NCBI GenBank assembly: GCA_021816845.1
Contig: JAKAWT010000001.1
Coordinates: 262,087 to 326,086 of the forward strand
From: a bacterium
GTDB lineage: Bacteria > Patescibacteriota > Dojkabacteria > JAKAPS01 > JAJZLI01
DNA length: 64,000 nt
Reading direction: 5' to 3'
The position numbers and the translations under genes are program-made. The notes beneath the pieces were generated by a model. It was not told the origin of the DNA, searched no databases, and saw only the letters and a program-made list of their open reading frames with translations. Positions 2,240 through 64,000 of this stretch are shown here, piece by piece. Positions within the stretch are counted from its first letter, which is position 1; each line of letters begins with the position of its first letter.

Positions 2240-2246
2240 AAATAAT

Positions 2247-3213: not shown

Positions 3214-4133
3214 TATATTATAGATTTAATTTTGGATGATAGAGAAAATATTCTTTCATTTATGACACCACCAAGAAGTTGAGGAATCAAAGAGAGAGAA
3301 AATAGAACTATAATTCCAAGTATCAATCTTTCTAAATTTCCTATGTAATAATTATTAACTATTACTACAAATACAGAAATACCAATTAAGAATGCCGGCT
3401 GGATAAATAAAAGCTGCACTATTTTAGAGAAAGCATTAGGCAATAAATCTCCCATTGGAGGATATATAGATATAACAATAAAAAGAGGAAATAGGAGAAT
3501 TAGAATCCAAAGCATAATAAATCTTATTATAAACTGCAAAGAGAATATGAACAGCGCTATAATAAGAAGTATGTATAATACTATTGAGACAATTCCAGAA
3601 AATATTCCTATTTGAAGTGATGAAGCCCCCATCGTGTTTACAATAGTTGAGAATAAACTTGAACTTCCTCCTATCATATGTACGACTATAAATTGATCTA
3701 CAACATTTATAAATGTTATGAAAAAAGACAAGAAATATATAGATGTAAAAAGAAATATTACTGAAATAAAAAGACTACCTAATAAATCAGATGGAGATAA
3801 ATTGGTTTTACCAACCGTTGCTTCTCCAATTAAATGTATAACATAAACAAGAATTATTACTGGTATAATTGAAATTGCAAGATATTGGGTCCCATTTCTA
3901 TAGTTAGAAATAGCAGCACCTTCAAAATCACCTCCTCCTGGTTTTAGAATGTTGGGTGTATATTCTGTGAACTGATCTATTATATACCCTAGAGAACATA
4001 CTACTCCTTCAAAAGAATATGTAGTTTGAGACGAGCATCCTGACCCTGTACTTTGATTTTGAGCAAATATAGGGGATGCTAGCAGAAAAAGCAGTAATGA
4101 ACTAATAAAAAGTCCCCGAATTAACAACCCCAT
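3213..4133 (-). CDS. Secreted polytopic membrane protein, VirB6/TrbL-like (paralog of 52025..53635)
   Basis: Signal peptide ending …SPIFAQ, then a Ser/Thr/Gly-rich segment with two Cys (GSGCSS…VVCSLGY), then at least 6 TM helices. This architecture is shared with 52025..53635 (…VFAQTTTTSSS…CAPANG…CGF). Confidence 0.45.
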   Translation of the reverse strand: MGLLIRGLFISSLLLFLLASPIFAQNQSTGSGCSSQTTYSFEGVVCSLGYIIDQFTEYTPNILKPGGGDFEGAAISNYRNGTQYLAISIIPVIILVYVIHLIGEATVGKTNLSPSDLLGSLFISVIFLFTSIYFLSFFITFINVVDQFIVVHMIGGSSSLFSTIVNTMGASSLQIGIFSGIVSIVLYILLIIALFIFSLQFIIRFIMLWILILLFPLFIVISIYPPMGDLLPNAFSKIVQLLFIQPAFLIGISVFVVIVNNYYIGNLERLILGIIVLFSLSLIPQLLGGVINERIFSLSSKIKSII

Positions 4134-9196: not shown

Positions 9197-9224
9197 ATTT
9201 TTAAAATTAGTCTTTTTTAATTCA

Positions 9225-9908
9225 TTATTTTGATCCAGAAACTATTGGACCTGTATATTCATCAAAGTCACCTCTAATTTTAGCATTCATAGGATTATAT
9301 ATGCTATAGAAAAGTTTTATTAAATCTGCACTCTCAAGTTGCCTAGATCTTAATCCCATTCTAGAGAGTTGCTTGATTATGTGATCCCTCCTTGGATAAA
9401 GCCTGATTTTTGCAGCCTCAACCAACTTAGTAGTATCTCCAAGTTTAGCTTGTTTACCAAAGAACTGTTTAATAAAAGAAGGTTTCTTAGGCATTGATGC
9501 AAGATATGGAATGACAATATAGAAATGTTTATCTAGAACATTATTTTTCACAATTAAATCCTTAATATTTTTTCTATAAATATCTATTTGGTATTTAATT
9601 TTAGGATCTCTCTGCTTTAATTTATACTCATCAAGATGCTTTAAATATCTTGATATATCAATATTTTCAGTATGTATCATAACTTGGATATAAAAACCGA
9701 GAGAATTTAGTAATCCTGCAAATGCATATATTTTAGATTCCTGCTCAATCTCAGATAAAAGATAGAAATTTACAGCAGAAGTCTCAATGACTATACATAC
9801 ATTTCCATTCTTTAGAATAAGAAGATTATCTTTAATATCTTCTATATCAAGATGATCTTGAGTTGTTGCTACTATAGGTACCCTTTTAGGATCAGATAAA
9901 ATTGACAT
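9225..9908 (-). CDS. Conserved T4SS-associated protein upstream of VirB4 (paralog of 2247..2849)
   Basis: Same synteny and sequence similarity as 2247..2849. The C-termini are also related (…LRSRQLESADLIKLFYSI vs …LRAKIVDTRDEIINILSFI). Confidence 0.4.
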   Translation of the reverse strand: MSILSDPKRVPIVATTQDHLDIEDIKDNLLILKNGNVCIVIETSAVNFYLLSEIEQESKIYAFAGLLNSLGFYIQVMIHTENIDISRYLKHLDEYKLKQRDPKIKYQIDIYRKNIKDLIVKNNVLDKHFYIVIPYLASMPKKPSFIKQFFGKQAKLGDTTKLVEAAKIRLYPRRDHIIKQLSRMGLRSRQLESADLIKLFYSIYNPMNAKIRGDFDEYTGPIVSGSK

Positions 9909-9911
9909 AAT

Positions 9912-46437: not shown

Positions 46438-46464
46438 AATCCTTAGACTAAGATATTATTAAAA

Positions 46465-49492: not shown

Positions 49493-49501
49493 TGTGGATA
49501 A
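49493..49501. promoter_or_regulatory. Perfect consensus DnaA box TGTGGATAA in the dnaA upstream region
   Basis: An exact 9-mer about 110 nt upstream of the dnaA start codon, consistent with dnaA autoregulation or a second origin flank. Confidence 0.6.
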
Positions 49502-49601
49502 CTTTTCAAGTAATCTACTAAATACTTATTATTGTAATATTTGTTTTACAATATAAAAACAGCTCTGGTATTTTAAAAAAAAAGACTTTATTATTATAGA
49601 A

Positions 49602-52024: not shown

Positions 52025-53635
52025 GTGATAAGATATTATGTTTACATACTATATTTTTTAAATATGCAGTTTATAAAAAGACATACAGTATTACCCTTCA
52101 AAGAAAAAAAATTAAAGACACAAATCTTGTTGTTAAAAACGAGAATTTTTATAAAACACCTAATTTCGTATAAAAGGGATTTGATTGATCTTATAGAGAG
52201 AACTACGAATGCAAACTTAAAACAAAGAAGTTCAATAAATATAAAGAATGTTTTTGCATTATTAGTAGTTTTTGGAGTTTTATCTGGAGGCTACGTCTTT
52301 GCTCAGACAACAACTACTTCTTCCTCTACAACTTTGGATAAGTGTGCTCCTGCCAATGGATCAGGACTTGCAACTTGGAATTCTTGTGGTTTCACTCCAT
52401 CTATTTTTCAATCAGGTGCGATTGCTATACTTGGTAATTATACGCAATATTCTAACTCTACAGCCCAGAATTTTAAATATACAGGGGGTTATGGGGCAAT
52501 GGGAGAAATGACTTCTTTGATGGGAACTATGTATGCAGCACAGCCTGAATCTGGAGTTGGGTATTTTGCATATTTAGGAGAGAAAGCTGGTTTTATAAAT
52601 CCTACTTATGCTGCAACAACATCAAATTCTGGTGGCCCAATTTATGGATTCTCTTTCCTCTCTCCAATTGAACCTCTGTGGGCATTAACTAGAAACGTAG
52701 CATATTTCCTGTTAATTTTAATAATAATAATGACAGGAATTATGATAATAATAGGAGGAAAGATTGGAGGCCAAATACCAATAACCTTTATGTCTGCATT
52801 ACCAAATATTGTTGCTGCAGTAATACTAATTGAATTCTCTTATGCATTGGCGGGATTTATGATAGATTTAATGAATATTCTACTTTCTTTTGTATTTTTC
52901 ACATTTAATTATCTTGGACCTAATTTAGGAGGAAAAAGTTTTTCTTCAGCTTTTTCTAGTAAAATGTATGTATTTTCAGTCTTTGGTACAGAACAGAGTC
53001 AGATACAAAAAGCCTTAGAAAATTCACAACCACTTGTTAATTCTATTACTGCAAATAGTAATAATGTATATGTGAAATTACTTGGGATGTTAGGGAATCT
53101 TATAAGTAATCATCAGTTATCTGGAATTATAGCATTTGTTATTGCTGTAATATTACTTTTCACTGCGATAAAGATCTTTATGAAACTTTTAGCTTCATAT
53201 GTCATACTTATTTTTCTTCCAGTAGCCGCACCGTTTATGTTCTTATTTGGAGCTTTTCCAGGACAGAGTAAATTTTACTGGAAATTTTTTATGGGGATGT
53301 TTAAAGCTCTTATGGCATTTGTTGTTGTCTATGCAATTTTCCTGATAATGTTTTATATAGAAAATGGCAATGGAGGAAACCCTATATCTTTCGGGAACGG
53401 AAATGCTTTACCACTTATTGGGTTTAACAATATTTCTACATCTTCTGCAACTTCAGTAATCTCTGCATTTATAGCTATTGCTCTTTTTGTTCTTATACCA
53501 AAACTTGTTGGCGATGTACAAAATGCTATATCAAGAGACTTTGGAGATTATGGAACAGAACTTAAAAAGAATGTTGCAGGTCCTTGGGCTAGCCTTAGAA
53601 GAGGTGCTAGGAACCTTACAGGGATGGCAAGATAA
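52025..53635 (+). CDS. VirB6/TrbL-like secreted polytopic membrane protein (paralog of 3213..4133); true start probably downstream of the annotated ATG
   Basis: Signal-peptide-like …LLVVFGVLSGGYVFAQ, a Thr/Ser-rich stretch with two Cys, then at least 7 TM helices. The first 70 codons of the ORF (a poly-basic, low-complexity-looking stretch) precede the signal peptide and may be non-coding. Confidence 0.45.
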   Translation: MIRYYVYILYFLNMQFIKRHTVLPFKEKKLKTQILLLKTRIFIKHLISYKRDLIDLIERTTNANLKQRSSINIKNVFALLVVFGVLSGGYVFAQTTTTSSSTTLDKCAPANGSGLATWNSCGFTPSIFQSGAIAILGNYTQYSNSTAQNFKYTGGYGAMGEMTSLMGTMYAAQPESGVGYFAYLGEKAGFINPTYAATTSNSGGPIYGFSFLSPIEPLWALTRNVAYFLLILIIIMTGIMIIIGGKIGGQIPITFMSALPNIVAAVILIEFSYALAGFMIDLMNILLSFVFFTFNYLGPNLGGKSFSSAFSSKMYVFSVFGTEQSQIQKALENSQPLVNSITANSNNVYVKLLGMLGNLISNHQLSGIIAFVIAVILLFTAIKIFMKLLASYVILIFLPVAAPFMFLFGAFPGQSKFYWKFFMGMFKALMAFVVVYAIFLIMFYIENGNGGNPISFGNGNALPLIGFNNISTSSATSVISAFIAIALFVLIPKLVGDVQNAISRDFGDYGTELKKNVAGPWASLRRGARNLTGMAR

Positions 53636-53640: not shown

Positions 53641-54318
53641 ATGGATTTAAGACAATTTTACTATGACAAATATAAGGATGATTTTTCATTGTATGAGGAA
53701 TTTATAAGGAAATTCTCTTATAGTAGTGATGTAGATAATTTTTTGACCCTTGAGCTTAAAACCTTTGATGAATATTGTGATGACAGAACCCTTCCCCTGT
53801 ATGACTATATGTACTCCTCACTATATGAGCTTTTAAAAACTCCTACAGTCTCAGATTTACAATTTCTTTATAGGGTCATAGACAAAGATTTTATAGAGTT
53901 TTTTTCTTCTCAAAAAGGGAGAGATTTCCTTTTTTATGAAGGACTAAAGAATGAAAAAGGAGAGGAAATTACAATCAGGAAAGATGCTTTGATTGGAGAA
54001 GAAAATTATGAAGATCTGTCTTTCTCTCCTCATATTCTTGATCCAAATTATTTTTATTTCATTGACCACGATGATGATATTAGGGGGATCAAATATTTGA
54101 AGGAAGTGAAAACCCTTTTTATTATAAGGAAGTTTTTAGAATATGGAGGTTCCTTTGCATATCTTAATAATGCAGAGGATAGTCTTTTTATAAAGAAACT
54201 TTGGATTCCTTTATCTGAAGGCATTATAAAAATTTCCGATAAAAACCTTGTAACTTCAAGCATATCATTATATGAAGATATCTTTGATTTTAACTTAGAT
54301 TTAAATATTGAACTTTAA
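53641..54318 (+). CDS. Hypothetical acidic cytoplasmic protein
   Basis: 225 aa, D/E/Y-rich, with no motifs. Its stop overlaps the start of the giant gene (ATGA at 54317-54320). Confidence 0.35.
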   Translation: MDLRQFYYDKYKDDFSLYEEFIRKFSYSSDVDNFLTLELKTFDEYCDDRTLPLYDYMYSSLYELLKTPTVSDLQFLYRVIDKDFIEFFSSQKGRDFLFYEGLKNEKGEEITIRKDALIGEENYEDLSFSPHILDPNYFYFIDHDDDIRGIKYLKEVKTLFIIRKFLEYGGSFAYLNNAEDSLFIKKLWIPLSEGIIKISDKNLVTSSISLYEDIFDFNLDLNIEL

Positions 54319-57300
54319 TGAATGATATACAGAAACTAAAGAATAATCTATATAAATCTTATTGTGATCTTATCTATACAAAAGAAGATTTGGATAGAGA
54401 TTTATCTGTATCTAGGATTGATCTTAGTAGGTATGTTCAAGATTTTATAGATCAAAGAAATTGTGAGTTAAACGGAATTCCATCAGGATTAGTTGGAGAA
54501 GTTCTAGATAAAAAAAGAAATTTTACTTTCAGGGATAAAGTTTTAGAAGGACAATACCGGAGGTATGTTAATGTAGCAGTAGAAGAGAATTTGTATAGAA
54601 GGTTCTCTATCACAAGTTCTAATTCATATAAGAGAGCATATAAAGCTAGAGAGGCAAGACTTCTTGCAAAATCATTAACTCCATCAATAGCTCAATATTT
54701 TCTTCCTGCTCAAGGAGGTAGGTTTTCTGGAACAATCGGAGATATAGATACTGTTAAATTTATGGTTTCTATACTTCAGAGAAAGAAGTATCTAGATGTT
54801 ATAGAAAGACAACTCTACACTTACAGAACTCAAGGTTATATGCCTGCATTAGATGAAAGACTTGAGGTTAGAAAAGTTAATCTTTCACTAAATGCTTTAA
54901 GAAGAAGAGAAGGAGTAGGGGCTCAGATAAAAACTAGAAGAGTATTAGATGTTTGGGAGACAGTCAGTCTAGAAGAAGTGTATTCTCTAATAAGAGGGCT
55001 ATCAAAAGATGAGGCTATAAAGGAAATTACAAGGAGATATCAATACCCTATTGCCGTTGCAGAGGCAGTTTATTCTAGAGTTATTGAAAAAACTACAGCA
55101 GTTGACATTCTTGAAGATGATAAAGGTATAGCTAGAATTACTCCAATTGTTAATGATGGGAACTTCCATGCTAGATATTTTTTCCAATATATCCTTAATG
55201 ACAATAAAAAAAGGAATAATAGAAAAATATTTTCTATTCCTAAAACATGGATAATGGGTAGAGAGGTGGGGGTTCTAGTTGGGCTCGGATTTTTCTCTAA
55301 AAATCCTGAAGTAAATCAATATTCTAGATTTATAGATAAAAATCCATTTCTAAAAAGAATAACAGAGTATGATAAAGAACAGTATTATGAATCCATAAGA
55401 AGTTTTTTTTCTCCTACTGAAACATCTAGGGTTGTTGGTTCTAAATATTCTCAAGGGCTATATGTTAGAAACACAAATAGATTCCTTTTTAACCAAAAAA
55501 GGGGAGGCTTACGATATGAAGACTACAGCAAGGATTTTAAAGACCAAACTGCAGGAGAAAATATAGAGTATGCATTGAACGAAAAAAAAGAACGAGGATT
55601 GTTGTTTTTTAAAAAACCTACAACAATAAGACAAGGGTATGAAGTCCTAGACACCAGATCATCTTTATGGACTCGCTATAGATACAAGAAAAGGAGGATT
55701 TTAAAAATTCTAGATTTTATAGCTGCAATTCCTGCACTTATATCTTTGTCTGTAGGGTTTATAGAGACAAGGCTTATAAATATTGCAGATAGAGCTTTCT
55801 TGGGAGGTAGGCTAACAAAAGCTTTTATTGGCCATATTGAAGGAGGAACGCTAACAGATAAGTTAATGCTCTCTTTTGATGGTATAAGATTCTCTTTTAA
55901 TGCCTTTAAATTAATTATAAAAGATGGTGCTGAAATAGCAGTCCCTGCATTGTTAGTAGGTATTTTATCAGGATCTCTTCCAGTGGCTTTGGCTGTAGGG
56001 ATACCTTTCTTCGGACTTAAATTCCTTAAAGATTTCCTTCCTATGTTTGATGCACAAAATCCTCTAACAGTAGATATCATTAAAAAGATAGTAGGCGGCA
56101 TGACACAAGAAGCTCTTTCTGGCAGTGAAATTATGCTCAAATCTTCTATATTTGGTTTAGAAGCTGGTGCACTTTCAATCCCACTAGCACTTTTGTTTGG
56201 AGCTTCTGCACCATTAGTTTTTATGGGTGCATTTGCTGCTGCTACAGGATATAGAGCTGTAAGTACATTATTTGCAGGAAGATTTATTCCTTCTTATCTT
56301 GAAGCTTCAAAGCTGGACGCATCCTTATTTGATATTTTAAGATATAAGTCCCAATACTTGGGGGAGTTTGGTACAGGGGGTTTTATTACAGGAGGTCTAT
56401 TAACTTTAGCTTTTGGAGGTAATCCAGCATTTGTACTTGCATTTACTGGTGCTGGATTACTTAGTGGTTCTGTTGCAGATTTTTTTAAGAATGCCATATT
56501 TGAAGAATCTATAGTTCATACTACACCTACAGCTACAATACTTTCAGATACCACCCATGTAGCAGTTGGATTTGGAGCAGGTCTTGGTATTATTGGTTTT
56601 GCATTTTTTGGGGTACCGGGAGCCATAGTACTTGGAGGTGCAGGAGCAGCATTAAGTGTTGTTACAACAATAATTCAAAGGAGAGTTACATCTATAACAG
56701 TTGGTAAGCTAGATCCTACAATATTATCTCATATATCAAGATTGTCTCCAGAGGATATAAGGGATTTAGTTACAGCTTCCTCTTCCATAGAAGATATGAG
56801 AACTATCCTTCTAAAAGCTGGATTGTCAGCAGATATTGTAAGTAGATTTTTATCAAGTAGAGCCTTTCTTGAAGATATTAGAGATATAAGTGAATCTATA
56901 AGATCAAATCTTTCGCTACAAGAGAATTATGTAAAAGATCTACTTAAGGGGACTCTGGAAAGAGATCTTTTTTCAAGGCAGCTCTTATTAGGAGATATAG
57001 CAAAAAATTTTAGAAATTTTTATGACATAAGAGATCTAAATTCCTTAGAAGAAATACGGCATCTATCTATAAATGATTTTGCGACAAGGTTTGGTTTAGA
57101 TCCGGACACTGCAGGGAGATTATTACGTAGTGATGGTTTTATTAGAGCGTTAGATAGTGAGGATATAGTTCAAGTTAGAAACAGCATAGAGAGTGCTCTA
57201 AGAGGTAGTTTAAGAGAAAGATTTTCATTGTCACAAGGGGATATAGATAAATTATTCAAAGAATCTAATTCTGGGATAATTAAGAGTCTACGTCCAATAA

Positions 57301-59033
57301 ATTTAGAATTAAGATCATATTTAAAAATATCAGAATACCTTAGAGAAGGAAGAGCTCTTGATTTTGTAGGAAGGGGTGAACTAGCAAAATTATTAAATGT
57401 GGATGAAGTAAATCTTGCTGAGCACTTAAGGACTGTATATCAAATTAATATAGAGACCGTTAAATATTCAGAATTAAGAGATATTCTACTGAGAGATAAT
57501 ATTAATATTGTATCTGCTTTAAGTGAAAGAAGTGAATTTTTTAGAGTCCTCGAAGGAACAAAACTAACAATGGGAGAACTTTTTGGGAAGTATGTGGAAT
57601 TTCCTGATAATCTTCCAGATTTATTGAGTATGAATTTTTCTGAATACTTAAAAGTTATTAGTGACCCAACATCTGTTTTTGCTGCTTCTTGGGGATGGGA
57701 AGATCTATTAGGGAAGGCACAAGGTGATTTCTTAGCAAGCCCAGAACTAAAGGCAATAATAGGTGATAAGATAAAAGAATTACCTTTCTCTTTGGGAAAA
57801 CTAGCAGAATTTGGTAGAAATTTCCATCTTGGACATTTAAATTTTGCAGGAATTGAAAGTGTTGGAATGACAGGTTTGTGGACTGGGATAACAGTTGCAA
57901 TACTAGGAGTCCCAATTTTACCAGCAATAGCAATAACAGGTACTGCTGTTTTAGCAAAGGGGTTGATTAGTGAATGGGTGGCAGCAAATCCTTTGAATAA
58001 GGCAGATATTCTCGCAGGAAGATTAACAACAATTGATCAATATAAATTATTTGCAAAATCTTTGGAAGGATCACTAAATGTTGGAATAATAGGATTTTTA
58101 GTAGGAACAGTTATAGGAGGGCCTTTGGTTGGTACCTTAATAGGTGGAGGTTCTATGATTGGTCTTATGACCTACAAATATTTAAGGGGACCAGAAGCTG
58201 CAATTGCTGAGGCAACAAAAGGCTTTGGAGCAGTTGTTATGAAAGCTGGGAATGAAAGTTTAAATGTTGTAATGTCATTTAGTCTTGTAGATCAATTATT
58301 CCATCTTAAATCTTTTATACCAAGTCTATTGTTTCAAAATGGAATATTGTCTGCACTTGGAGCTTGGGCAACGGTTGGATTTGGCATTGCAGGATTTGCA
58401 GCTATAGGAGGAGCCATAATAACATTTGTAGTAGGTGCAGCAGCAGTAGCATTTTTTCCTGCAGTTCTTATAGGAGCAGCCGTTGTTGTAACCGCTGATG
58501 TTGCAACAAGAATCTTTTCCTGGCTTATCACGGGAACTTCGCATGGACTTCTTTTTTATGTTGGTGCTGGATTAAAAGACGTAGCAGGATTTTTCCTAGG
58601 AGCTGCAGGTTCAACATTAGCATCTTTAGGTATTGACATAATAATAGGACTTATATTCTTACTTTCGAGATTTGATTTTGATATAGATGATTTTCTAAAA
58701 ACTATTTTTATAATGGTATTCTCTTGGTCACTTATAGCAGGAGGAGTATTTGGATCAGGAGTATTTTCAGGTTCTAGTAATAATAATATTTCTAATGTTG
58801 CTGTATCAAATAATAGTACTCCCGCTTCTGGTATATCATCAAATATGATAATCTCTCCTGTGAAGGGTAAGATATTTAAGATATCCCAGTCAGGGTCTGT
58901 TATAGTCTCAGATACGGTATACATAAAAACGGAAAATGGAGATATTATAGGTGTAAAAAATGTAAACAACCCATATTTATATAGTGGAGAAACAATTACA
59001 AAAGGCCAATTTATAGGGAACTTATCACAATGA
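54318..59033 (+). CDS. Giant (1571 aa) multi-pass membrane protein with an N-terminal basic cytoplasmic domain, Gly-zipper TM bundles, an internal EDIRD-repeat soluble domain and a C-terminal beta domain
   Basis: Uninterrupted 4.7-kb ORF. Residues 1-460 are K/R-rich and soluble. At least 15 predicted TM helices are rich in GxxxG/AxxxG. Residues 770-1130 carry a soluble region with repeated …EDIRD…/…YDIRD… motifs. Confidence 0.6.
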   Translation: MNDIQKLKNNLYKSYCDLIYTKEDLDRDLSVSRIDLSRYVQDFIDQRNCELNGIPSGLVGEVLDKKRNFTFRDKVLEGQYRRYVNVAVEENLYRRFSITSSNSYKRAYKAREARLLAKSLTPSIAQYFLPAQGGRFSGTIGDIDTVKFMVSILQRKKYLDVIERQLYTYRTQGYMPALDERLEVRKVNLSLNALRRREGVGAQIKTRRVLDVWETVSLEEVYSLIRGLSKDEAIKEITRRYQYPIAVAEAVYSRVIEKTTAVDILEDDKGIARITPIVNDGNFHARYFFQYILNDNKKRNNRKIFSIPKTWIMGREVGVLVGLGFFSKNPEVNQYSRFIDKNPFLKRITEYDKEQYYESIRSFFSPTETSRVVGSKYSQGLYVRNTNRFLFNQKRGGLRYEDYSKDFKDQTAGENIEYALNEKKERGLLFFKKPTTIRQGYEVLDTRSSLWTRYRYKKRRILKILDFIAAIPALISLSVGFIETRLINIADRAFLGGRLTKAFIGHIEGGTLTDKLMLSFDGIRFSFNAFKLIIKDGAEIAVPALLVGILSGSLPVALAVGIPFFGLKFLKDFLPMFDAQNPLTVDIIKKIVGGMTQEALSGSEIMLKSSIFGLEAGALSIPLALLFGASAPLVFMGAFAAATGYRAVSTLFAGRFIPSYLEASKLDASLFDILRYKSQYLGEFGTGGFITGGLLTLAFGGNPAFVLAFTGAGLLSGSVADFFKNAIFEESIVHTTPTATILSDTTHVAVGFGAGLGIIGFAFFGVPGAIVLGGAGAALSVVTTIIQRRVTSITVGKLDPTILSHISRLSPEDIRDLVTASSSIEDMRTILLKAGLSADIVSRFLSSRAFLEDIRDISESIRSNLSLQENYVKDLLKGTLERDLFSRQLLLGDIAKNFRNFYDIRDLNSLEEIRHLSINDFATRFGLDPDTAGRLLRSDGFIRALDSEDIVQVRNSIESALRGSLRERFSLSQGDIDKLFKESNSGIIKSLRPINLELRSYLKISEYLREGRALDFVGRGELAKLLNVDEVNLAEHLRTVYQINIETVKYSELRDILLRDNINIVSALSERSEFFRVLEGTKLTMGELFGKYVEFPDNLPDLLSMNFSEYLKVISDPTSVFAASWGWEDLLGKAQGDFLASPELKAIIGDKIKELPFSLGKLAEFGRNFHLGHLNFAGIESVGMTGLWTGITVAILGVPILPAIAITGTAVLAKGLISEWVAANPLNKADILAGRLTTIDQYKLFAKSLEGSLNVGIIGFLVGTVIGGPLVGTLIGGGSMIGLMTYKYLRGPEAAIAEATKGFGAVVMKAGNESLNVVMSFSLVDQLFHLKSFIPSLLFQNGILSALGAWATVGFGIAGFAAIGGAIITFVVGAAAVAFFPAVLIGAAVVVTADVATRIFSWLITGTSHGLLFYVGAGLKDVAGFFLGAAGSTLASLGIDIIIGLIFLLSRFDFDIDDFLKTIFIMVFSWSLIAGGVFGSGVFSGSSNNNISNVAVSNNSTPASGISSNMIISPVKGKIFKISQSGSVIVSDTVYIKTENGDIIGVKNVNNPYLYSGETITKGQFIGNLSQ

Positions 59034-59878
59034 AGGTATTGAAAATAATAGTACCAATAGTTATATTAATAGGTTTGGTGTATCTATATATAAATTTCCA
59101 TCCCACTCATCCTAATGTGACTGTTGTTAAAACTAAAAGTACTACTATAATACCTAAAGTTTCTTTTTATATAAATACAAATATTAAAATTCAAAAAGCT
59201 AAATCTATTCCTATTATAAATCCAAATAATAATAAGACTTTTTATTATACAAGTTTAAAAAATCCTTATACTGTAGCAACAAATCTTGGTATATCATATC
59301 CTCCCATATTATCAAAAAATGGTCAGATATCATGGACTTCTTCAACTAACTCCCTCATATATTCGAATGGTTCTTTCTTTTATTCTGTAAACTTAGGTTC
59401 TAAAGGGAGCATATCAGAGTATATAAATAATATCTTATCTCAAATAACACCTCAAGGTGTAAGTTATAAGAAGGTTACTAATATAACTCAAAATGAAGTC
59501 ATAGTATATGTCTATCCAAAAATAACTAATCAGTATATATATCTTACTGATGGTAATAAATTTTTTTATACATTTATATTTTATCCAAATGATTCTATAA
59601 AGAGTTTTAATATATACCCACTGACCCTATCTAAGAGAAAAGGCCAATCTTTAAATGTTACAAATCTAGATAATAAAACCCTAAAAAATTTAGGTCTCTA
59701 TGTAGGAGCTCCTGGTGTAATTTCTAATGTCACCATTACTTCTGAAGATTCTGGATATTTCTTCGATCCGCAAAATAAGGTAATTATTCCTGTTTACATA
59801 ATTTATGGGAATGCTGATATAATAAATTTAGGTATTAGAAATTTTACACTTTATGTTCCAGAGGTTAAAACTATATAA
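59030..59878 (+). CDS. Signal-anchored Asn/Ser/Tyr-rich extracytoplasmic protein
   Basis: N-terminal TM (IIVPIVILIGLVYLYI), translationally coupled to the giant gene (ATGA overlap). Confidence 0.4.
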   Translation: MKVLKIIVPIVILIGLVYLYINFHPTHPNVTVVKTKSTTIIPKVSFYINTNIKIQKAKSIPIINPNNNKTFYYTSLKNPYTVATNLGISYPPILSKNGQISWTSSTNSLIYSNGSFFYSVNLGSKGSISEYINNILSQITPQGVSYKKVTNITQNEVIVYVYPKITNQYIYLTDGNKFFYTFIFYPNDSIKSFNIYPLTLSKRKGQSLNVTNLDNKTLKNLGLYVGAPGVISNVTITSEDSGYFFDPQNKVIIPVYIIYGNADIINLGIRNFTLYVPEVKTI

Positions 59879-62216
59879 ATTAATAATACTTTTTTTTACA
59901 ATTTCTATTTTTATAGTAATAGGTAAGAATACTTATGCTGCAAGTAATTCTTGTGGAAATGGAATAACAAATATTCCTCAGCATATGGCAGTATCATGTA
60001 ACACTACACCGTTACAATTTAATGTCCCTGTATCTGTTGTTGCAGGGAGTGGAGGGTATGCAGTGTCTGGGAGTGCAACATTGAATGTGGGGTTTCCTCA
60101 AAATATACCACTATTTCAGTTTTTAGATTCAGTATCTTCAGTTGGTACAGTAGATCAATCTAATTCTTACCTTGATAATCTTTATCAACCATATGGTTAT
60201 TTTGTAGAAAAAACTAATATCAATCCAAATGTAAATTTTAATATACCATCCTCTTCAAATGGGGTTGGTGCCATAGACGTTCCTTCTAGTTGCTCATCCG
60301 TTTCTGGTGTTCAATGTAGCGTTTTATCTACTTCGGGGGCAAGTCAATATGCATATTTTGCTGTTCCTGGTATAGGGAAAGCCGTTGATTTATTTACATT
60401 GGGAAATATGTTCACAATTTCTGGTTCACCATATACTCAAAGTTTAAACAACCTTTCATCACCTTTTATATCAAGTACCCCACAAAATCCAGTTGGTACA
60501 TGCACTGGTAGTTCTAATGGGTGTATAAACAATGAGATGCCTTTGGCATACAAATTAACAACTACATATGGAAACAATCCATACAATCCTGCCGATAACG
60601 CTCCATTGACTACGCTTGCAACCGCTGGGGTAACAGTATTTGATTGGTTTGGTCAATTGTTAACATGTAATTTTATTCTACAATATGGGTGTCAGTTTAC
60701 ATCTTCTGGGATACCACCATACTGCAGTAAGTATATATACCAAGTAAATCAATCTAGTCCAATAACTACGTCAAACCTTCCTTACTGTCCAGTAACAGGG
60801 TTTAGCATTAATGTGTCCTTTTCTTGTCAACAATATGTTGGTCCTGTAACAACTTTAGAATCGGAGTTAAATTCTACTAATCCTCAAGATACACAGCGAA
60901 TAAAGACTCTAGAAAGTGAACTTGCTTCTGCAGAAGCAGCACTCAATTCTTGTATGAATACATTACAAGGATTCCTCCAAAATGGAATCCCAGTTAGTTT
61001 TAATACAAATTTGTATTTGCAGGGACTAAATAGAATTCTTGCAGATGAATGGTATGCAGAAGCTTCATTAGATGGAGGACCTGCTATAGGACATACAAAT
61101 ACTAAGGCTTGGGATCAATATGTAAATCCATACACAGATGAGTTGTATCCTGCTTATCAGAAGATTTTAGATCAAGGCCCTTCTAATCCTCAATATGCCT
61201 CTTTAACAAACTTATTATTTTTGGGCATAGGAGAAAATGTCCCGGTTAGTATATCAGTGACATCTTCCAGTGGCAGTACAGGAACTTCGACTACTACTTT
61301 CCCTGTATCAAATTTTTATTTTCCATGGATAGGAGATGCACTACAGATTCAGCAGAATTTAGCCATACATAATTTTCAGCCATACTTTAATAATGGGAAT
61401 ACCAATAATCTGCCTAAATTAGCCCAGGGAGAATATTACATACAAAACAAATCACAATATCCAGATCCTCTTCTGCTTTATCTCTTATATGTAGGAGCAT
61501 TGTCACCAACTGATCCTGTAGTACAAAATGCACTTGGATCTTATCCAATAAGTACTATTTTACAAAGTTCAACAGGAGGTGGTTCCGGAGGTGGTTATGG
61601 AGGTGGTCCAACGAATACTTCTGGTAAATATAACCAACAAGCATGTGATCTTGCGTTGACTATGGCACGTCCATCAACGATAAGTTTGTCTTTATCAAAA
61701 TTATTACAGTATGCAAATGATTTTCTTGGTGCTAATTACTCTGAGAATAGAGATTTTTCTAGGTGCTATCCTAATGCTGCTCCGGGTGTATACCCAGGGA
61801 TTGATTGTTCTTCTTTTGTTGCGACACTGTATAAAGATATGGGTATTCCTCTTGCTCAAGATTCTACTACTGAAACACAGTATTCATATAGCCAAACGGC
61901 CTTACATATATTTACAAACTTAAATGATGTTGCTGCAGGAGATTTGATATATTTTTATGAGCCGGCAGATGCTCCACAGGCTCCTCCTCAACATGTTGCA
62001 TTAATATCAAGGTGGAATGGTCCTAATAATTTTGATACCATTCAAGCTACTTATCCTGGAAATGGTGTTGTGAATGATAATTATACTAAGAATGTCCCAC
62101 CATTATGCCTCACTCTACCTGGAGGTGCGGTACCTTCTGGGGGTTCATTATCTTCTGGAGGTAATGGTAGTTGTATAATGGGATTTGCTAGTCCTAGTGC
62201 AGGACAATTTAACTAA
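59853..62216 (+). CDS. Secreted 787-aa protein with a C-terminal NlpC/P60 peptidoglycan endopeptidase domain
   Basis: Signal peptide, then a long Ser/Thr/Gly/Pro-rich beta region, a GGGSGGGYGGGP linker, and a C-terminal domain with the catalytic Cys in DCSSFVATLY, His in HVALIS, and a following polar residue. Confidence 0.6.
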   Translation: MFQRLKLYKLIILFFTISIFIVIGKNTYAASNSCGNGITNIPQHMAVSCNTTPLQFNVPVSVVAGSGGYAVSGSATLNVGFPQNIPLFQFLDSVSSVGTVDQSNSYLDNLYQPYGYFVEKTNINPNVNFNIPSSSNGVGAIDVPSSCSSVSGVQCSVLSTSGASQYAYFAVPGIGKAVDLFTLGNMFTISGSPYTQSLNNLSSPFISSTPQNPVGTCTGSSNGCINNEMPLAYKLTTTYGNNPYNPADNAPLTTLATAGVTVFDWFGQLLTCNFILQYGCQFTSSGIPPYCSKYIYQVNQSSPITTSNLPYCPVTGFSINVSFSCQQYVGPVTTLESELNSTNPQDTQRIKTLESELASAEAALNSCMNTLQGFLQNGIPVSFNTNLYLQGLNRILADEWYAEASLDGGPAIGHTNTKAWDQYVNPYTDELYPAYQKILDQGPSNPQYASLTNLLFLGIGENVPVSISVTSSSGSTGTSTTTFPVSNFYFPWIGDALQIQQNLAIHNFQPYFNNGNTNNLPKLAQGEYYIQNKSQYPDPLLLYLLYVGALSPTDPVVQNALGSYPISTILQSSTGGGSGGGYGGGPTNTSGKYNQQACDLALTMARPSTISLSLSKLLQYANDFLGANYSENRDFSRCYPNAAPGVYPGIDCSSFVATLYKDMGIPLAQDSTTETQYSYSQTALHIFTNLNDVAAGDLIYFYEPADAPQAPPQHVALISRWNGPNNFDTIQATYPGNGVVNDNYTKNVPPLCLTLPGGAVPSGGSLSSGGNGSCIMGFASPSAGQFN

Positions 62217-62219: not shown

Positions 62220-62909
62220 ATGAACTTAAGTACACTAACAATATATATACGAAAATACTGGATTCTTATTATAGCTTTACTATTTTTAGTACTGCTATTA
62301 TTTATATTTTTTAATAAATCTACACCTTCATTTAATTTTGATACAAGCATTAATTACCAACAAATAGGTCCAAAGGGTGGGTCATATACACCACTCGGAT
62401 ACCATGTAGATTCTTTCTCTGGCACATCCTTTTATTCTAAAATTCTAAATCAACAAGTTAAGTATTTTAAAATATCTTCTGGCGAGACGATAGGATATTT
62501 TATCAACAAAGGTAACACTCTTAATAAATATGAAAACAATCCTTTATATCTAGGATATGCTCTTTCATATGATATTTTTAATATACCAGTTCCTTCTTTA
62601 GAACAGGGGAATCTAAACTATTATACATTCTTGTTAAATCATTTTGGGTCTATCCCCTCTTATCTAATATCAAAAAATATCTACTCTTATCTTAAATCAA
62701 ATCTTAATAAGTTTTACTCTGCAAATCCTATATTAGAAAAAATCAATATAATTAACTATTCTAAAGGAAATCAGTATAATATACTGTATTCCTATAATCT
62801 ACTTCCTTTGCTGGCTCAAGGTGGGGTGAAGTATTATAATAAAAATATTGATATAATTATCAATAAAAAATCTGGAAGTTGGGATATAACTAGCATAAAA
62901 ATTTTATGA
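62220..62909 (+). CDS. Signal-anchored hypothetical protein
   Basis: N-terminal TM (WILIIALLFLVLLLFIFF), 229 aa. Confidence 0.35.
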   Translation: MNLSTLTIYIRKYWILIIALLFLVLLLFIFFNKSTPSFNFDTSINYQQIGPKGGSYTPLGYHVDSFSGTSFYSKILNQQVKYFKISSGETIGYFINKGNTLNKYENNPLYLGYALSYDIFNIPVPSLEQGNLNYYTFLLNHFGSIPSYLISKNIYSYLKSNLNKFYSANPILEKINIINYSKGNQYNILYSYNLLPLLAQGGVKYYNKNIDIIINKKSGSWDITSIKIL

Positions 62910-63631
62910 GGAAACTAAATCTTTTACTTATTGCTATTTTTATAGACATTATCTTTATAAGTCTTGCCGTTGTTTATGTACATGCGAGCACTTATGAAAT
63001 ACCTCCAGAGAATAGAGGGTACCCTTTAAATTTATATTCTGGTGGTAATTCTGGAGTAGGGACGATATCTGGTGCTCCAATTCCAGTACCAGCTGGTTAT
63101 TGTCCAGAGCCTTTCACTGTGAATGTTCCTCTTATCTCCACTCAAGGGATTCCTTTACAGCAATCAGATTTCACAGCAATGTTTAATTATTTACAGAATT
63201 TTGGAAGTAAGACAGTAGCAAAGGCCAATCAGATTGTAGTAGCTTGTCAGATATCTCCTGGTTTGTACAAATGTGACCCTAGATTTATTGCTGCTATATG
63301 GGGACAAGAAAGTAGTTTTTCTACTGGAGTAGGTGCAGGAGAAAGTTTTAATTGTTTTGGTGGAGAACCTCAATCCTTTGGGCCAGAACTTAATTGTGCA
63401 ATTAATTCATTTCTTTCTTATTACAGAACATTTAATTTGGAAATGCAGTCTCAACAAATAGCTGTTGCTGGAGCAGGAACCTCTGCTGCGTGCAAAACAA
63501 CAGATCTTTTTACCTATATGATGGAAGAATATACTCCCATAAACGGGAGTTTTGGAAACTCATCGACTAGGTACAGCTTACACTTTTTTCTGAGTAAATT
63601 TTTAGGGTCTCAGGCAATTGTTACAGGGTAA
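62906..63631 (+). CDS. Signal-anchored protein with a lytic-transglycosylase (SLT)-like motif; VirB1-like candidate
   Basis: …RFIAAIWGQESSFSTGVGAG… resembles the SLT catalytic E-S motif, and it has four Cys. The assignment is tentative. Confidence 0.4.
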   Translation: MRKLNLLLIAIFIDIIFISLAVVYVHASTYEIPPENRGYPLNLYSGGNSGVGTISGAPIPVPAGYCPEPFTVNVPLISTQGIPLQQSDFTAMFNYLQNFGSKTVAKANQIVVACQISPGLYKCDPRFIAAIWGQESSFSTGVGAGESFNCFGGEPQSFGPELNCAINSFLSYYRTFNLEMQSQQIAVAGAGTSAACKTTDLFTYMMEEYTPINGSFGNSSTRYSLHFFLSKFLGSQAIVTG

Positions 63632-63634: not shown

Positions 63635-64000
63635 ATGAATATTAATTTAACACTAATAAAAAAGAATGCAAGATATATAATACTTATAGTAGGATTAATC
63701 TTAATTATATTTTTAATTTTTATTCTGTCACGACCAAGTAGTTCTAATAAAGTTATTCCTATTGGCGTCCCTATTGTTAATAAGAATAATTTTAATCCTA
63801 AAGCTCTAAATTATAATTCTACGAATTTCAGTATTAAATATGTTCCACAAAATCAAGCCTTTGGTAACTTAAAAGGAAATACAGTTTATATTCATATAAA
63901 GAATATAGATTTTGCAAATCCTTCAGGGGTTATCGCGCAAGAAGATAAATATGTTGCTCAAGCTAAAGCGATACTCCTTAAATATGGAATAAATCCTAAT
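63635..64000 (+). CDS. Signal-anchored hypothetical protein, 3'-truncated by the window edge
   Basis: ATG at 63635 with an open frame to position 64000. N-terminal TM (YIILIVGLILIIFLIFIL). Not present in the ORF track because no stop is reached. Confidence 0.4.
   Translation, partial: MNINLTLIKKNARYIILIVGLILIIFLIFILSRPSSSNKVIPIGVPIVNKNNFNPKALNYNSTNFSIKYVPQNQAFGNLKGNTVYIHIKNIDFANPSGVIAQEDKYVAQAKAILLKYGINPN

What the first reader, a model, noticed from the sequence alone, without database searches (positions are those of the whole stretch)
54318..59033. Giant 1571-aa protein with a Lys/Arg-rich cytoplasmic head, glycine-zipper TM arrays and an internal EDIRD-repeat domain
The architecture (a soluble basic 460-aa N-domain; two blocks of closely packed small-residue-rich helices with GxxxG/AxxxG/GxxxA spacing reminiscent of channel-forming or holin-like bundles; a 360-aa soluble insert with at least four …(E/Y)DIRD… repeats; and a C-terminal beta domain ending …VKGKIFKISQSG…GDIIGV…GETITKGQFIG) has no obvious counterpart among characterised proteins. 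The basic N-domain could bind nucleic acid on the cytoplasmic side, which would fit a DNA-translocating or coupling role that compensates for the missing VirD4.
Basis: inference. Interest (0 to 1): 0.55.

Follow-up and report, generated by a model that had tools for sequence, protein, structure and literature searches.

The report
Orphan giant membrane protein, Patescibacteria
This is a real, strongly conserved 1571-residue membrane protein found only in a tiny lineage of ultra-small Patescibacteria; it matches no known protein family and most likely forms the membrane platform of a cell-envelope machine, perhaps their unusual type IV secretion system, but nothing shows that it replaces the missing VirD4 motor.

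Summary
The ORF 54318..59033 (+) is real. It is under purifying selection (dN/dS about 0.1) and sits in an eight-gene operon that keeps its order even in relatives only about 30% identical. An exhaustive search of 1.84 billion proteins found only 10 clusters, and 185,579 species genomes held only 5 loci. Pfam, NCBIfam, PHROGs, PDB, plasmid and phage searches gave no family.

Anatomy:
- a folded N-domain (residues 1-295) with no fold match;
- a disordered polybasic linker (296-460) whose positive charge is conserved;
- two hydrophobic blocks rich in small residues, with at least 10 membrane segments;
- a helical, internally repeated insert (791-1180);
- an S/N-rich tether and a small C-terminal beta domain resembling barrel-sandwich hybrids.

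A composition classifier trained on this window's own proteins places the N-domain, linker and insert in the cytoplasm and the C-terminus outside.

The "glycine zipper" spacing does not exceed what the composition predicts. The protein has no Walker A motif.

Best reading (confidence about 0.4): an "extended VirB6-like" membrane platform belonging to the non-ATPase half of the Patescibacterial monoderm-type T4SS. That half would be polytopic and bitopic proteins plus an NlpC/P60 hydrolase, encoded next to oriC. The VirB3/TrsD/VirB4 genes lie about 43 kb away. The VirD4-substitute idea is unsupported.

The parts
54318..59033 (+). Complete ORF of the 1571-aa protein, stop codon included
   Evidence: ORF list. 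An identical protein is on record (P0001), with orthologues 83% and 76% identical. dN/dS is 0.10-0.13 against the orthologues.
54318..55202 (+). Residues 1-295: folded, mainly helical N-domain with a small sheet, predicted cytoplasmic. Invariant residues: Y20, D24, N91, Y104, E112, G173, M175
   Evidence: AF2 model m27fd09eb69a2: pLDDT 70-93 over most of 1-295, pTM 0.61. No Foldseek match in PDB or BFVD at E<=1e-3. Invariant columns. Cytoplasm-like composition in all members.
55203..55697 (+). Residues 296-460: polybasic linker modelled with low confidence (net +18), ending in KKRR just before the first hydrophobic helix
   Evidence: pLDDT below 50 for 297-311, 316-339 and 368-460. Net charge is +18 to +32 in all 11 members that have this region, although the sequence is poorly conserved.
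55698..56687 (+). Residues 461-790: hydrophobic block 1. One 21-aa segment (462-482) and four stretches of 32-36 aa (538-569, 611-643, 686-718, 750-785), each with a central Gly/Pro turn
   Evidence: Hydropathy and deltaG(app) scans. The turn residues P703 (GGNP) and G765/G768 (GVPG) are invariant or nearly invariant; P582 and D721, in the loops after two of the stretches, are invariant. Reading these stretches as helical hairpins is an inference.
56688..57857 (+). Residues 791-1180: acidic, all-helical insert built from degenerate repeats of about 45-100 aa (unit: S-x-E-[DE]-I-R-x-L ... [FL]-G-L-x-x-[DE]-x-x-x-x-L-L). DIRD motifs at 813, 853 and 903. Predicted cytoplasmic
   Evidence: DIRD statistics. 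hhalign self-match P=4e-4. AF2 pLDDT 70-84 for about 804-1074, as many short helices. Composition score 0.16-0.26 in all members, whereas no extracytoplasmic 390-aa window scores above 0.
57858..58757 (+). Residues 1181-1480: hydrophobic block 2, the most conserved part among close relatives, ending in the conserved FDxDDFLKTIFIMV motif
58758..59030 (+). Residues 1481-1571: conserved S/N-rich tether (SGSSNNNTSN) and a beta domain of about 60 aa ending in NNPYLYxGExxxKGxxxG. Predicted extracytoplasmic, contains no His
   Evidence: Alignment. Three strands in the AF2 model. Local Foldseek matches of about 61 columns: cytochrome f small domain (prob 1.0), RNAP beta' hybrid barrel, ModE/Mop, and the LytM domains of Csd1/2 and DipM (prob 0.89-0.95). 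All have E>0.1. Weak profile hits to IIA-Glc and cytochrome f. Extracytoplasm-like composition, -0.16 to -0.31, in all members.
52025..53635 (+). Operon partner p523/536: N-terminal anchor, Cys-containing external domain, then several TM helices. The layout resembles VirB6 but no homology was detected
   Evidence: Sequence and family alignment. No Pfam, NCBIfam or PDB hit. Same position in all relatives.
53641..54318 (+). Operon partner p225: acidic protein (pI 4.45, net -19) with cytoplasm-like composition. Its stop overlaps the start of the giant gene
   Evidence: No PDB hit.
59030..59878 (+). Operon partner p282: bitopic protein with an N-terminal TM helix and an external domain. Its ATG overlaps the giant gene's stop
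   Evidence: No PDB or Pfam hit.
59853..62216 (+). Operon partner p787: secreted protein with a C-terminal NlpC/P60 cell-wall hydrolase domain
   Evidence: Pfam PF00877, E=2.7e-6, residues 649-719. PHROG hits to tail and lysin proteins over the same region.
62220..62909 (+). Operon partner p229: bitopic protein
   Evidence: Only weak hints: Pfam Tube E=0.005, and an NTF2-like MecA_N hit at E=0.08 in the L011 orthologue.
62906..63631 (+). Operon partner p241: secreted protein with an invariant AAxxxQESxF motif, a possible lysozyme/SLT-like enzyme
   Evidence: Alignment. Pfam SLT_2 only at E=0.22 over the motif. No PDB hit.
63635..64000 (+). Last operon gene (130 aa, bitopic), cut off by the end of the window
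   Evidence: Sequence. Full length in the identical contig L001 and in relatives.
584..4133 (-). Context: T4SS ATPase module 2. VirB6-like 306 aa (3213-4133), VirB3-like 126 aa (2833-3213), 200-aa protein (2247-2849), VirB4-like ATPase 551 aa (584-2239)
7019..11819 (-). Context: T4SS ATPase module 1. PrgI (VirB3) fusion 635 aa (9912-11819), TrsD-like 227 aa (9225-9908), VirB4 725 aa (7019-9196)

Best explanation
The ORF encodes a lineage-restricted polytopic cytoplasmic-membrane protein. It is the largest subunit of an eight-gene envelope operon that is inherited vertically and lies beside oriC.

Most of its mass faces the cytoplasm, about 850 residues: a novel N-domain, a polybasic flexible linker and a helical repeat insert. 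Two blocks of hydrophobic helices rich in small residues embed it in the membrane. Only a tethered beta domain of about 60 residues, resembling a barrel-sandwich hybrid, reaches the cell wall side.

I propose that it works as an 'extended VirB6-like' membrane platform or channel subunit of the monoderm-type (MPF-FATA-like) type IV secretion system of this Patescibacterium. Under this model:
- the hydrophobic blocks build the membrane part together with the neighbouring polytopic p523 and the bitopic proteins;
- the cytoplasmic domains dock partners such as the acidic p225, VirB4 hexamers or substrates;
- the external domain links the complex to the co-encoded NlpC/P60 and SLT-like wall hydrolases that open the peptidoglycan.

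Shown: the gene is real and constrained; the family is tiny and isolated; the domain anatomy; the operon is conserved; there is no NTPase motif. Inferred: the topology (from composition and charge), the hairpin arrangement, and the assignment to the T4SS (from gene content, position and analogy).
For: 1. Real, constrained gene. dN/dS is 0.10-0.13 overall and below 0.2 in every region.
2. Conserved operon. The order trx-trmD-[polytopic, about 520 aa]-[acidic, about 225 aa]-[giant]-[bitopic, about 285 aa]-[NlpC/P60, about 770 aa]-[three small envelope proteins] is the same in relatives down to about 27-30% identity. Start and stop codons overlap, which suggests translational coupling.
3. The parts list matches the non-ATPase half of monoderm T4SSs: polytopic proteins, bitopic proteins, an NlpC/P60 hydrolase and a candidate lysozyme-like protein with an invariant QES motif. 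The same window holds two VirB3/TrsD/VirB4 modules, with NCBIfam CD1110-family VirB4 at E=2.7e-119 and 1.2e-69.
4. Position. The operon starts 2.6 kb from dnaA. Patescibacterial T4SS genes are typically close to dnaA and dnaN, and their VirB1, VirB6 and VirB8 components are often undetectable by sequence (PMC12102498).
5. Precedent. The essential T4SS locus of Ca. Southlakia epibionticum, next to dnaA, contains:
   - two polytopic proteins of about 1,000-1,090 aa (SEML1_0011 and SEML1_0013) with only weak VirB6/TrbL or 'T4SS protein' fold resemblance and with helical soluble domains (RuvA-C/UBA-like, ARM-like);
   - an NTF2-like protein;
   - a lysozyme plus cysteine-proteinase hydrolase.
   Source: PMC10633639 supplementary tables.
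6. [quoted passage not shown]
7. Topology. KKRR precedes the first hydrophobic helix. The composition classifier separates the window's known cytoplasmic and external proteins (26 of 27 on the expected side of zero in leave-one-out). In every family member it puts the N-domain, linker and insert inside and the C-terminus outside.
Against: - No sequence or fold evidence links the protein, or any operon partner except the NlpC/P60 domain, to a T4SS component. TrbL/VirB6, PrgH-type and CD1112-type models do not hit. Foldseek gave nothing, and the model of the membrane part is of low confidence (pLDDT 50).
- The nearest virB4 is about 43 kb away, and that locus already has its own VirB6-like 306-aa protein, so the T4SS may be complete without this operon.
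- The polytopic p523 shows no detectable homology to the 306-aa VirB6-like protein of the virB4 locus.
- The operon sits just downstream of two type IV pilin genes. A link to pili, or to wall growth, is equally compatible with the context.
- The family is confined to one small lineage, whereas the T4SS is widespread in the phylum.
- The topology rests on composition, not on a dedicated predictor or on experiment.
Confidence: 0.4

Rival explanations
1. Cell-wall remodelling module unrelated to secretion. The giant protein would be a membrane regulator or scaffold that positions or activates the co-encoded NlpC/P60 (and SLT-like) hydrolases through its small external domain. The logic resembles FtsEX acting on EnvC, PcsB, CwlO or RipC, or degenerate LytM factors that activate amidases.
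For: The giant gene is separated from the hydrolase gene only by the bitopic p282 gene, with overlapping coding regions at both junctions. The C-terminal domain gives local fold matches to LytM domains (Csd1/2 prob 0.95, DipM prob 0.89) and lacks any His, as a non-catalytic regulatory LytM would. The operon is chromosomal, vertically inherited and next to housekeeping genes. There are no hits in plasmids or phages.
Against: No ATPase partner such as FtsE lies in the operon. The external domain of about 60 aa is roughly half a LytM domain; it matches cytochrome f, RNAP and Mop barrels as well or better, and all E-values exceed 0.1. Pfam M23 appears only at E=0.13 in 1 of 12 members. This model does not explain 850 residues of conserved cytoplasmic mass.
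Confidence: 0.2
2. Accessory membrane platform of the type IV pilus or competence apparatus. The operon follows two pilin genes, and the window holds PilB, PilC and PilM. The cytoplasmic helical repeats and polybasic linker might handle incoming DNA.
For: Two prepilin-type genes lie immediately upstream in all relatives that could be checked. T4P genes lie at 15-28 kb in the window. Saccharibacteria, the Patescibacteria studied so far, are naturally transformable and depend on T4P (PMC10633639, PMC12857230).
Against: The housekeeping genes trx and trmD separate the pilins from the operon. No T4P component has this architecture. Cell-wall hydrolases are typical of T4SSs in monoderms rather than of T4P. 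No DNA-binding fold was detected.
Confidence: 0.1
3. One reading: a DNA-translocating or coupling protein that substitutes for VirD4. The basic head would bind DNA and the helix bundles would form the conduit.
For: The linker carries a large conserved positive charge (+18 to +32). The insert is built of short helix-turn-helix-like repeat units and appears cytoplasmic. No T4CP or relaxase gene is in the window.
Against: No Walker A motif is present anywhere and no P-loop, FtsK or HerA family hit was found, so there is no energy source. The basic segment is modelled as disordered. In Patescibacteria T4CP homologues usually lie far from virB4, and the Southlakia T4CP homologue was not essential (PMC12102498), so 'missing from the window' is weak evidence. 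Most T4SS loci of the Patescibacteria clade lack relaxases and are thought not to conjugate (PMC12102498).
Confidence: 0.05
4. A domesticated phage tail tape-measure-like protein, or a prophage remnant. Tape-measure proteins are long and helical, carry Gly-rich hydrophobic segments and often end in wall-degrading domains.
For: One family member (P0008, residues 547-881) matches PHROG 167 'tail length tape measure protein' at E=4.8e-5. p787 matches minor tail and lysin PHROGs through its NlpC/P60 region. p229 has a weak Pfam 'Tube' hit at E=0.005.
Against: Only 1 of 12 members hits the tape-measure model, and the query itself does not. tblastn against 50,697 phage records found nothing. Foldseek of the N-domain model against viral structures gave nothing; the C-terminal model was not run against that library. 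No capsid, portal, terminase or integrase genes are nearby. The synteny with trmD and L25 is identical in relatives only about 30% identical, which indicates vertical chromosomal inheritance.
Confidence: 0.05

Closest known systems
'Extended VirB6' subunits of type IV secretion systems, for example Rickettsiales VirB6 paralogues (Anaplasma VirB6-4, 4,322 aa), as described in PMC12857230 and PMC7648143. F-plasmid TraG is a further example cited from my own knowledge.
   Same: Five or more hydrophobic helices plus a large central hydrophilic domain. Function of the extra domains unknown. Encoded in a genome with VirB3/VirB4 modules and next to wall hydrolases.
   Different: No detectable sequence or profile similarity to TrbL/VirB6. 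It has an additional 460-residue cytoplasmic head and a polybasic linker. It is not adjacent to virB4. The hydrophobic stretches look like paired short helices rather than the canonical 5-6 TM bundle.
SEML1_0011 (998 aa) and SEML1_0013 (1,088 aa) of the essential T4SS locus of Ca. Southlakia epibionticum (PMC10633639, supplementary tables)
   Same: Patescibacterial, origin-proximal, very large polytopic proteins with helical soluble domains (RuvA-C/UBA-like, ARM-like) and only marginal VirB6/TrbL resemblance. Their neighbours include an NTF2-like protein and a lysozyme/cysteine-proteinase hydrolase.
   Different: Those genes flank virB4 directly, whereas this one is about 43 kb from it. The present family was not found outside about 10 clusters, so it is not a close relative of the Saccharibacterial proteins.
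ConG (ICEBs1), TcpH (pCW3) and Orf15 (Tn916): VirB6-like proteins of Gram-positive conjugation systems (from my own knowledge, not tested)
   Same: Large polytopic proteins (about 750-830 aa) encoded beside the bifunctional wall hydrolase (CwlT, TcpG, Orf14) in monoderm T4SS operons.
   Different: About half the size, with no polybasic head or C-terminal hybrid barrel. The NCBIfam and Pfam models searched gave no hit.
FtsX-type and degenerate-LytM regulators of wall hydrolases (FtsEX-EnvC, FtsEX-PcsB, FtsEX-RipC/CwlO, DipM) (from my own knowledge)
   Same: A membrane protein that presents a small non-catalytic external domain to an NlpC/P60 or amidase-type hydrolase. The C-terminal domain gives local fold matches to the LytM domains of DipM and Csd1/2.
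   Different: No ABC ATPase partner, no FtsX fold or Pfam hit, and an external domain far smaller than a LytM domain.
Phage tail tape-measure proteins
   Same: Long, largely helical proteins with Gly/Ala-rich hydrophobic segments, associated with wall-degrading activities. One family member hits PHROG 167.
   Different: The match is not family-wide. The context is chromosomal and non-viral. The protein has clear cytoplasmic domains and a stable membrane topology.

Membership tests
VirD4 / T4CP coupling proteins | P-loop NTPase domain with Walker A and Walker B motifs (FtsK/HerA-like) | tested here: not met
   No [AG]xxxxGK[ST] motif or relaxed variant anywhere in the 1571 residues. No Pfam or NCBIfam P-loop, TraG-D or T4CP hit.
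VirD4 / T4CP coupling proteins | Short N-terminal membrane anchor followed by a cytoplasmic nucleotide-binding domain and an all-alpha domain | tested here: not met
   The order here is a cytoplasmic head first, then at least 10 hydrophobic segments in two blocks. The N-domain model has no Foldseek match to any T4CP structure.
VirB6 / TrbL, including 'extended VirB6' | Five or more hydrophobic alpha-helices | tested here: met
   At least 10 hydrophobic windows with deltaG(app) below 3 kcal/mol. Family-averaged hydropathy gives the same picture.
VirB6 / TrbL, including 'extended VirB6' | [quoted passage not shown] | tested here: met
   A 390-residue helical insert lies between the two hydrophobic blocks.
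VirB6 / TrbL, including 'extended VirB6' | Sequence or profile homology to TrbL/VirB6/PrgH-type models | tested here: not met
   No hit in Pfam (E up to 1, all 12 members) or in NCBIfam. The CONJScan MPF-FATA profiles were not available.
VirB6 / TrbL, including 'extended VirB6' | Encoded within a T4SS gene cluster, typically within about 20 genes of virB4 | tested here: inconclusive
   The virB4 genes lie about 43-52 kb away in the same window. The operon itself carries VirB1-like hydrolase content and is origin-proximal, like other Patescibacterial T4SS loci (PMC12102498).
VirB6 / TrbL, including 'extended VirB6' | Fold similarity to solved VirB6 (R388 TrwI) | tested here: inconclusive
Peptidase M23 / LytM | Zinc ligands HxxxD and HxH | tested here: not met
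   Residues 1513-1571 contain no histidine, and none is conserved across the family.
Peptidase M23 / LytM | Profile match to PF01551 or LytM fold | tested here: inconclusive
   PF01551 appears only at E=0.13 in 1 of 12 members. Local Foldseek matches to Csd1/2 and DipM have prob 0.89-0.95 but E>4, and other hybrid barrels match as well or better.
Phage tape-measure proteins | Profile homology across the family and location in a tail gene module | tested here: not met
   PHROG 167 is hit by 1 of 12 members only. tblastn against phages gave no match. The synteny is chromosomal.
   No Pfam or NCBIfam hit. The single large insert lies between the blocks and has cytoplasm-like composition.
Glycine-zipper membrane motifs | Small-xxx-small (i, i+4) periodicity beyond what composition gives | tested here: not met
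   Within the hydrophobic segments: 44 observed against 40.7 +/- 4.0 in shuffles (z=0.8). No spacing from 1 to 8 stands out. Whole blocks give p=0.08 and 0.6.

The most novel reading that the evidence does not exclude
The protein is a new kind of membrane-anchored substrate receptor or gate for the Patescibacterial type IV secretion system, which lacks a relaxase and often lacks a nearby T4CP. Its conserved polybasic linker and its HhH/UBA-like helical repeats would capture nucleic acid or acidic cargo at the cytoplasmic face, possibly handed over by the acidic p225. They would feed it to a conduit formed by the hydrophobic helices, while VirB4 supplies the energy. This would be a T4CP-independent route for substrate recruitment.
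Probability: 0.1. Interest if true: 0.75.

Novelty: new variant of a known kind. Interest (0 to 1): 0.42.

Why it matters
Patescibacteria depend on other bacteria. In the one genetically tractable member, the T4SS is essential for epibiotic growth, yet its substrate, channel and wall-spanning parts are largely unidentified. VirB6, VirB8 and VirB1 homologues are mostly undetectable by sequence (PMC12102498, PMC10633639).

If this operon is the missing membrane and wall half of that machine in this lineage, three things follow:
- The apparatus can be split across the replication origin.
- Its largest subunit is a lineage-specific invention that takes up about 0.8-1% of a genome, if the 0.48-0.57 Mb contigs that carry the gene are close to complete genomes.
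- 'Extended VirB6'-type platforms evolve fast enough to become orphans.

It would also supply a defined candidate, with separable cytoplasmic and external domains, for asking how these cells couple secretion to local wall opening. If the operon is instead a wall-remodelling module, the finding is of more local interest.

Tried and rejected
Searches that found nothing:
- Word-indexed homology search with the N-domain alone gave nothing, not even the query itself. With the 12-sequence profile it returned only the three close sequences. The index appears to be swamped by low-complexity membrane words.
- The first exhaustive-search job failed because the profile exceeded 1,200 positions.
- The JGI metagenome scan found no relatives.
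- PDB sequence and profile searches gave nothing significant for the giant protein, its C-terminus, p523, p282, p229, p241 or p225. The E=0.0055 chorismate-mutase hit and the E=0.054 crAss-phage cargo hit are helical or Gly-rich look-alikes.
- Foldseek against PDB (both models) and against BFVD (N-domain model only) gave no match at E<=1e-3.
- tblastn of the giant protein against plasmids and phages, and of p787 and p523 against plasmids, found nothing.
- Rfam and tRNA scans of the window were empty.
- The promoter and terminator scan was at chance level in this AT-rich DNA.

Ideas tested and set aside:
- Internal duplication of block 1 and block 2 is not supported; BLAST E was about 7e-4 with composition correction switched off.
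- p523 is not detectably related to the 306-aa VirB6-like protein of the virB4 locus (hhalign prob 0.4%).
- The tape-measure idea was rejected because the hit is not family-wide.
- The glycine-zipper periodicity was rejected.
- Relaxase-like chemistry in the N-domain (invariant Y20 and D24) was considered but set aside. There is no HUH-type histidine cluster and no fold match.

Full report
**The sequence.** The window has about 30% G+C. It carries dnaA (47960-49381, minus strand) and dnaN (46465-47610, minus strand), with the minimum of cumulative GC skew at 48-50 kb, so it spans a chromosomal replication origin. Housekeeping genes (dnaK, trmD, thioredoxin, pentose-phosphate enzymes), type IV pilus genes and two VirB4 modules are also present. 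The ORF 54318..59033 (+) encodes 1571 residues exactly as reported. Its ATG overlaps the stop of the upstream 225-aa gene, and its stop overlaps the ATG of the downstream 282-aa gene. An identical protein and two orthologues (83% and 76% identity) exist in Patescibacteria MAGs, on contigs of 484 kb and 575 kb. dN/dS against these orthologues is 0.10-0.13 overall and below 0.2 in every region. This is a real, constrained gene.

**How isolated the family is.** The query has no hit in Pfam, NCBIfam or PHROGs, and no significant hit in PDB sequence searches. An exhaustive HMMER search of 1.84 billion representative proteins, using a profile of residues 380-1571, returned 10 clusters. All had E<=1e-31, and nothing lay between that and 1e-3. 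A scan of one genome for each of 185,579 species found 5 loci. A JGI metagenome scan found none, and tblastn against plasmid and phage collections found none. Scanning all 12 available members against Pfam and PHROGs gave no family-wide hit. The family is therefore a narrow-lineage orphan.

**N-terminal part.** AlphaFold2 with a 10-sequence alignment models residues 1-295 as a mainly helical domain with a small sheet (pLDDT mostly 70-93, pTM 0.61). Residues 297-460 are modelled at pLDDT below 50. Foldseek against PDB and BFVD gave no match at E<=1e-3. The linker is poorly conserved in sequence, but its net charge is +18 to +32 in every member, and it ends in KKRR directly before the first hydrophobic helix.

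**Hydrophobic blocks.** The two blocks (461-790 and 1181-1480) contain at least 10 windows with additive deltaG(app) below 3 kcal/mol. The soluble parts never fall below about 9.
- Block 1 consists of one 21-residue segment and four 32-36-residue stretches.
- Each stretch has a central Gly/Pro turn. Two of these turns are invariant or nearly invariant: P703 in GGNP, and G765/G768 in GVPG.
- I read these stretches as helical hairpins. That is an inference.
- Small residues make up 38% of the hydrophobic segments, but i,i+4 spacing is not enriched over shuffles (z=0.8). The 'glycine zipper' label therefore describes composition, not a demonstrated motif.

**Insert.** The insert (791-1180) is acidic and is modelled as many short helices (pLDDT 70-84).
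- It has three exact DIRD motifs (0 of 20,000 shuffles reach three).
- A profile self-alignment gives an off-diagonal match with P=4e-4.
- The repeat unit reads roughly S-x-E-[DE]-I-R-x-L ... G-L-x-x-[DE]-x-x-x-x-L-L.
- The literal EDIRD motif is conserved only in the closest relatives.

**C-terminus.** This part has a conserved SGSSNNNTSN tether and a domain of about 60 residues ending in NNPYLYxGExxxKG. The domain is modelled as three strands. It gives local Foldseek matches of about 61 columns to the cytochrome f small domain (prob 1.0), the RNAP beta' hybrid barrel, Mop/ModE, and the LytM domains of Csd1/2 and DipM. All have E>0.1. Weak profile hits to IIA-Glc and cytochrome f point the same way. 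The domain contains no histidine, so it cannot be a catalytic M23 domain.

**Topology.** No dedicated predictor was available. I trained a log-odds amino-acid composition score on this window's own proteins: 16 cytoplasmic proteins and 11 extracytoplasmic segments.
- In leave-one-out tests, all 16 cytoplasmic proteins scored positive and 10 of 11 external segments scored negative.
- In every family member the N-domain, linker, loops 1 and 3 and the insert score as cytoplasmic. The insert scores 0.16-0.26, and no external 390-aa window exceeds 0.
- The last 90 residues score as external (-0.16 to -0.31), while only 2.4% of cytoplasmic 90-aa windows fall below 0.
- Together with the positive-inside signal, this suggests N-terminus in, insert in and C-terminus out.

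About 850 residues would then face the cytoplasm and only a small tethered knob would face the wall.

**Context.** The gene order is pilin-pilin-trx-trmD-[polytopic, about 520 aa]-[acidic, about 225 aa]-[giant]-[bitopic, about 285 aa]-[NlpC/P60, about 770 aa]-[bitopic]-[secreted, about 250 aa]-[bitopic, about 130 aa], followed by rplY (ribosomal protein L25) on the other strand. This order is the same in relatives only 27-37% identical.
- p787 has an NlpC/P60 domain (E=2.7e-6).
- p241 has an invariant AAxxxQESxF motif reminiscent of lysozyme/SLT enzymes, but Pfam SLT_2 reaches only E=0.22.
- The other partners match nothing.
- p225 is acidic (net -19) and looks cytoplasmic. It is a possible partner of the polybasic linker (inference).

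At 0.6-12 kb the window holds two T4SS ATPase modules:
- PrgI fusion, TrsD-like protein and VirB4;
- a VirB6-like 306-aa protein, a VirB3-like protein, a 200-aa protein and a VirB4-like ATPase.

**Literature.** Patescibacterial T4SSs are related to monoderm MPF-FATA systems. They often lie near dnaA and usually lack relaxases. Their VirB1, VirB6 and VirB8 components are rarely detectable, and only 148 of 5,713 T4CP homologues lie near virB4 (PMC12102498). In Ca. Southlakia epibionticum the T4SS locus next to dnaA is essential. According to the supplementary tables it includes two polytopic proteins of about 1,000-1,090 aa with marginal VirB6/TrbL resemblance and helical soluble domains, an NTF2-like protein and a lysozyme/cysteine-proteinase hydrolase (PMC10633639). 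'Extended VirB6' proteins are defined descriptively by five or more hydrophobic helices plus large hydrophilic domains of unknown role (PMC12857230).

**Interpretation.** The best-supported reading is that the protein is the main membrane platform of an envelope-spanning complex encoded by this operon. That complex is most likely the non-ATPase half of the T4SS, which would make the protein an extended-VirB6-like subunit. I give this a confidence of about 0.4. The protein fits the descriptive definition but fails the only homology tests I could run. The link to the T4SS rests on gene content, position near the origin and analogy.

The rivals, in order of likelihood:
- A secretion-independent regulator of wall hydrolases (0.2). 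This is supported by the LytM-like hints and the coupling to p787. It is weakened by the lack of an ATPase partner and by the tiny external domain.
- A pilus or competence accessory (0.1).
There is no NTPase motif.
- A tape-measure-like relic (0.05). Only 1 of 12 members hits PHROG 167, and the context is chromosomal.

About 0.2 remains for something not considered here.

**Verdict.** The statement that the protein has no characterised counterpart holds. The coupling-protein mechanism is not supported. In kind, this is a new, very divergent variant of the large polytopic proteins that accompany monoderm and Patescibacterial T4SSs, not a demonstrably new class. Interest is moderate: the family is tiny and its function rests on inference, but it offers a concrete candidate for the unidentified membrane and wall part of an essential machine in a poorly understood phylum.

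Noticed in passing
window 584-4133 (-) and 7019-11819 (-): Two separate VirB4 modules. In each, the VirB4 N-terminal region seems to be encoded as separate small proteins. In module 1 this is a TrsD-like 227-aa protein. In module 2 it is a 126-aa TM-hairpin protein that matches the first ~90 residues of Mycoplasma-type VirB4, together with a 200-aa protein. Module 2 also has a classical VirB6-like 306-aa protein with a signal peptide.
   Followed up: partly
window 9912-11819 (-): A PrgI (VirB3-like) domain is fused to about 550 residues of low-complexity external sequence. This sequence contains DLNPKDLNPTDLDPKDLDP and QGPQ(I/A)QGPQAQG repeats and ends in a CarboxypepD_reg-like domain. That is unusually long for a VirB3 homologue.
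   Followed up: no
window 4518-5772 (+): An AbiEi antitoxin and AbiEii toxin pair (NCBIfam E=3.4e-7; Pfam E=3.6e-22) sits between the two VirB4 modules.
   Followed up: no
window 195-515 (+): Sortase domain (Pfam E=1.8e-21, profile positions 28-124 of 125), including the TLxTC-type motif LTLMTC. The true start may lie upstream of the first ATG.
   Followed up: partly
window 53641-54318 (+): An acidic 225-aa protein (pI 4.45, net -19) with cytoplasm-like composition, translationally coupled to the giant gene. Its charge complements that of the polybasic linker (+18). It is conserved in all relatives and matches no family or PDB entry.
   Followed up: partly
window 62906-63631 (+): A secreted 241-aa protein with an invariant AAxxxQESxF motif and conserved cysteines. 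It may be a very divergent lysozyme or lytic transglycosylase that complements the NlpC/P60 protein. Pfam SLT_2 reaches only E=0.22.
   Followed up: partly
L014 (2.9-kb contig), protein P0011: A 911-aa family member has the insert-like region, hydrophobic block 2 and the C-terminal domain but lacks the N-domain and block 1. It could be a split gene, a paralogue or an assembly artefact; the short contig does not allow a decision.
   Followed up: no
window 5856-7004 (+): A 382-aa protein with a signal anchor, a weak bactofilin-like repeat region (Pfam E=4e-5, below the gathering score) and four C-terminal TM helices. It lies between the toxin-antitoxin pair and VirB4.
   Followed up: no
window 46000-50000: The cumulative GC skew reaches its minimum at 48-50 kb, which coincides with dnaA and dnaN and with a 22% G+C stretch at 46-48 kb. 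This is the probable oriC. The T4SS ATPase genes and the giant-protein operon lie on opposite sides of it.
   Followed up: partly
P0008 residues 547-881 (relative, loci L012 and L013): A single family member matches PHROG 167 (tail length tape measure protein) at E=4.8e-5 over hydrophobic block 1; the other 11 members do not. The likely cause is Gly/Ala-rich membrane-segment composition, but the resemblance in pattern to tape-measure hydrophobic segments is real.
   Followed up: yes
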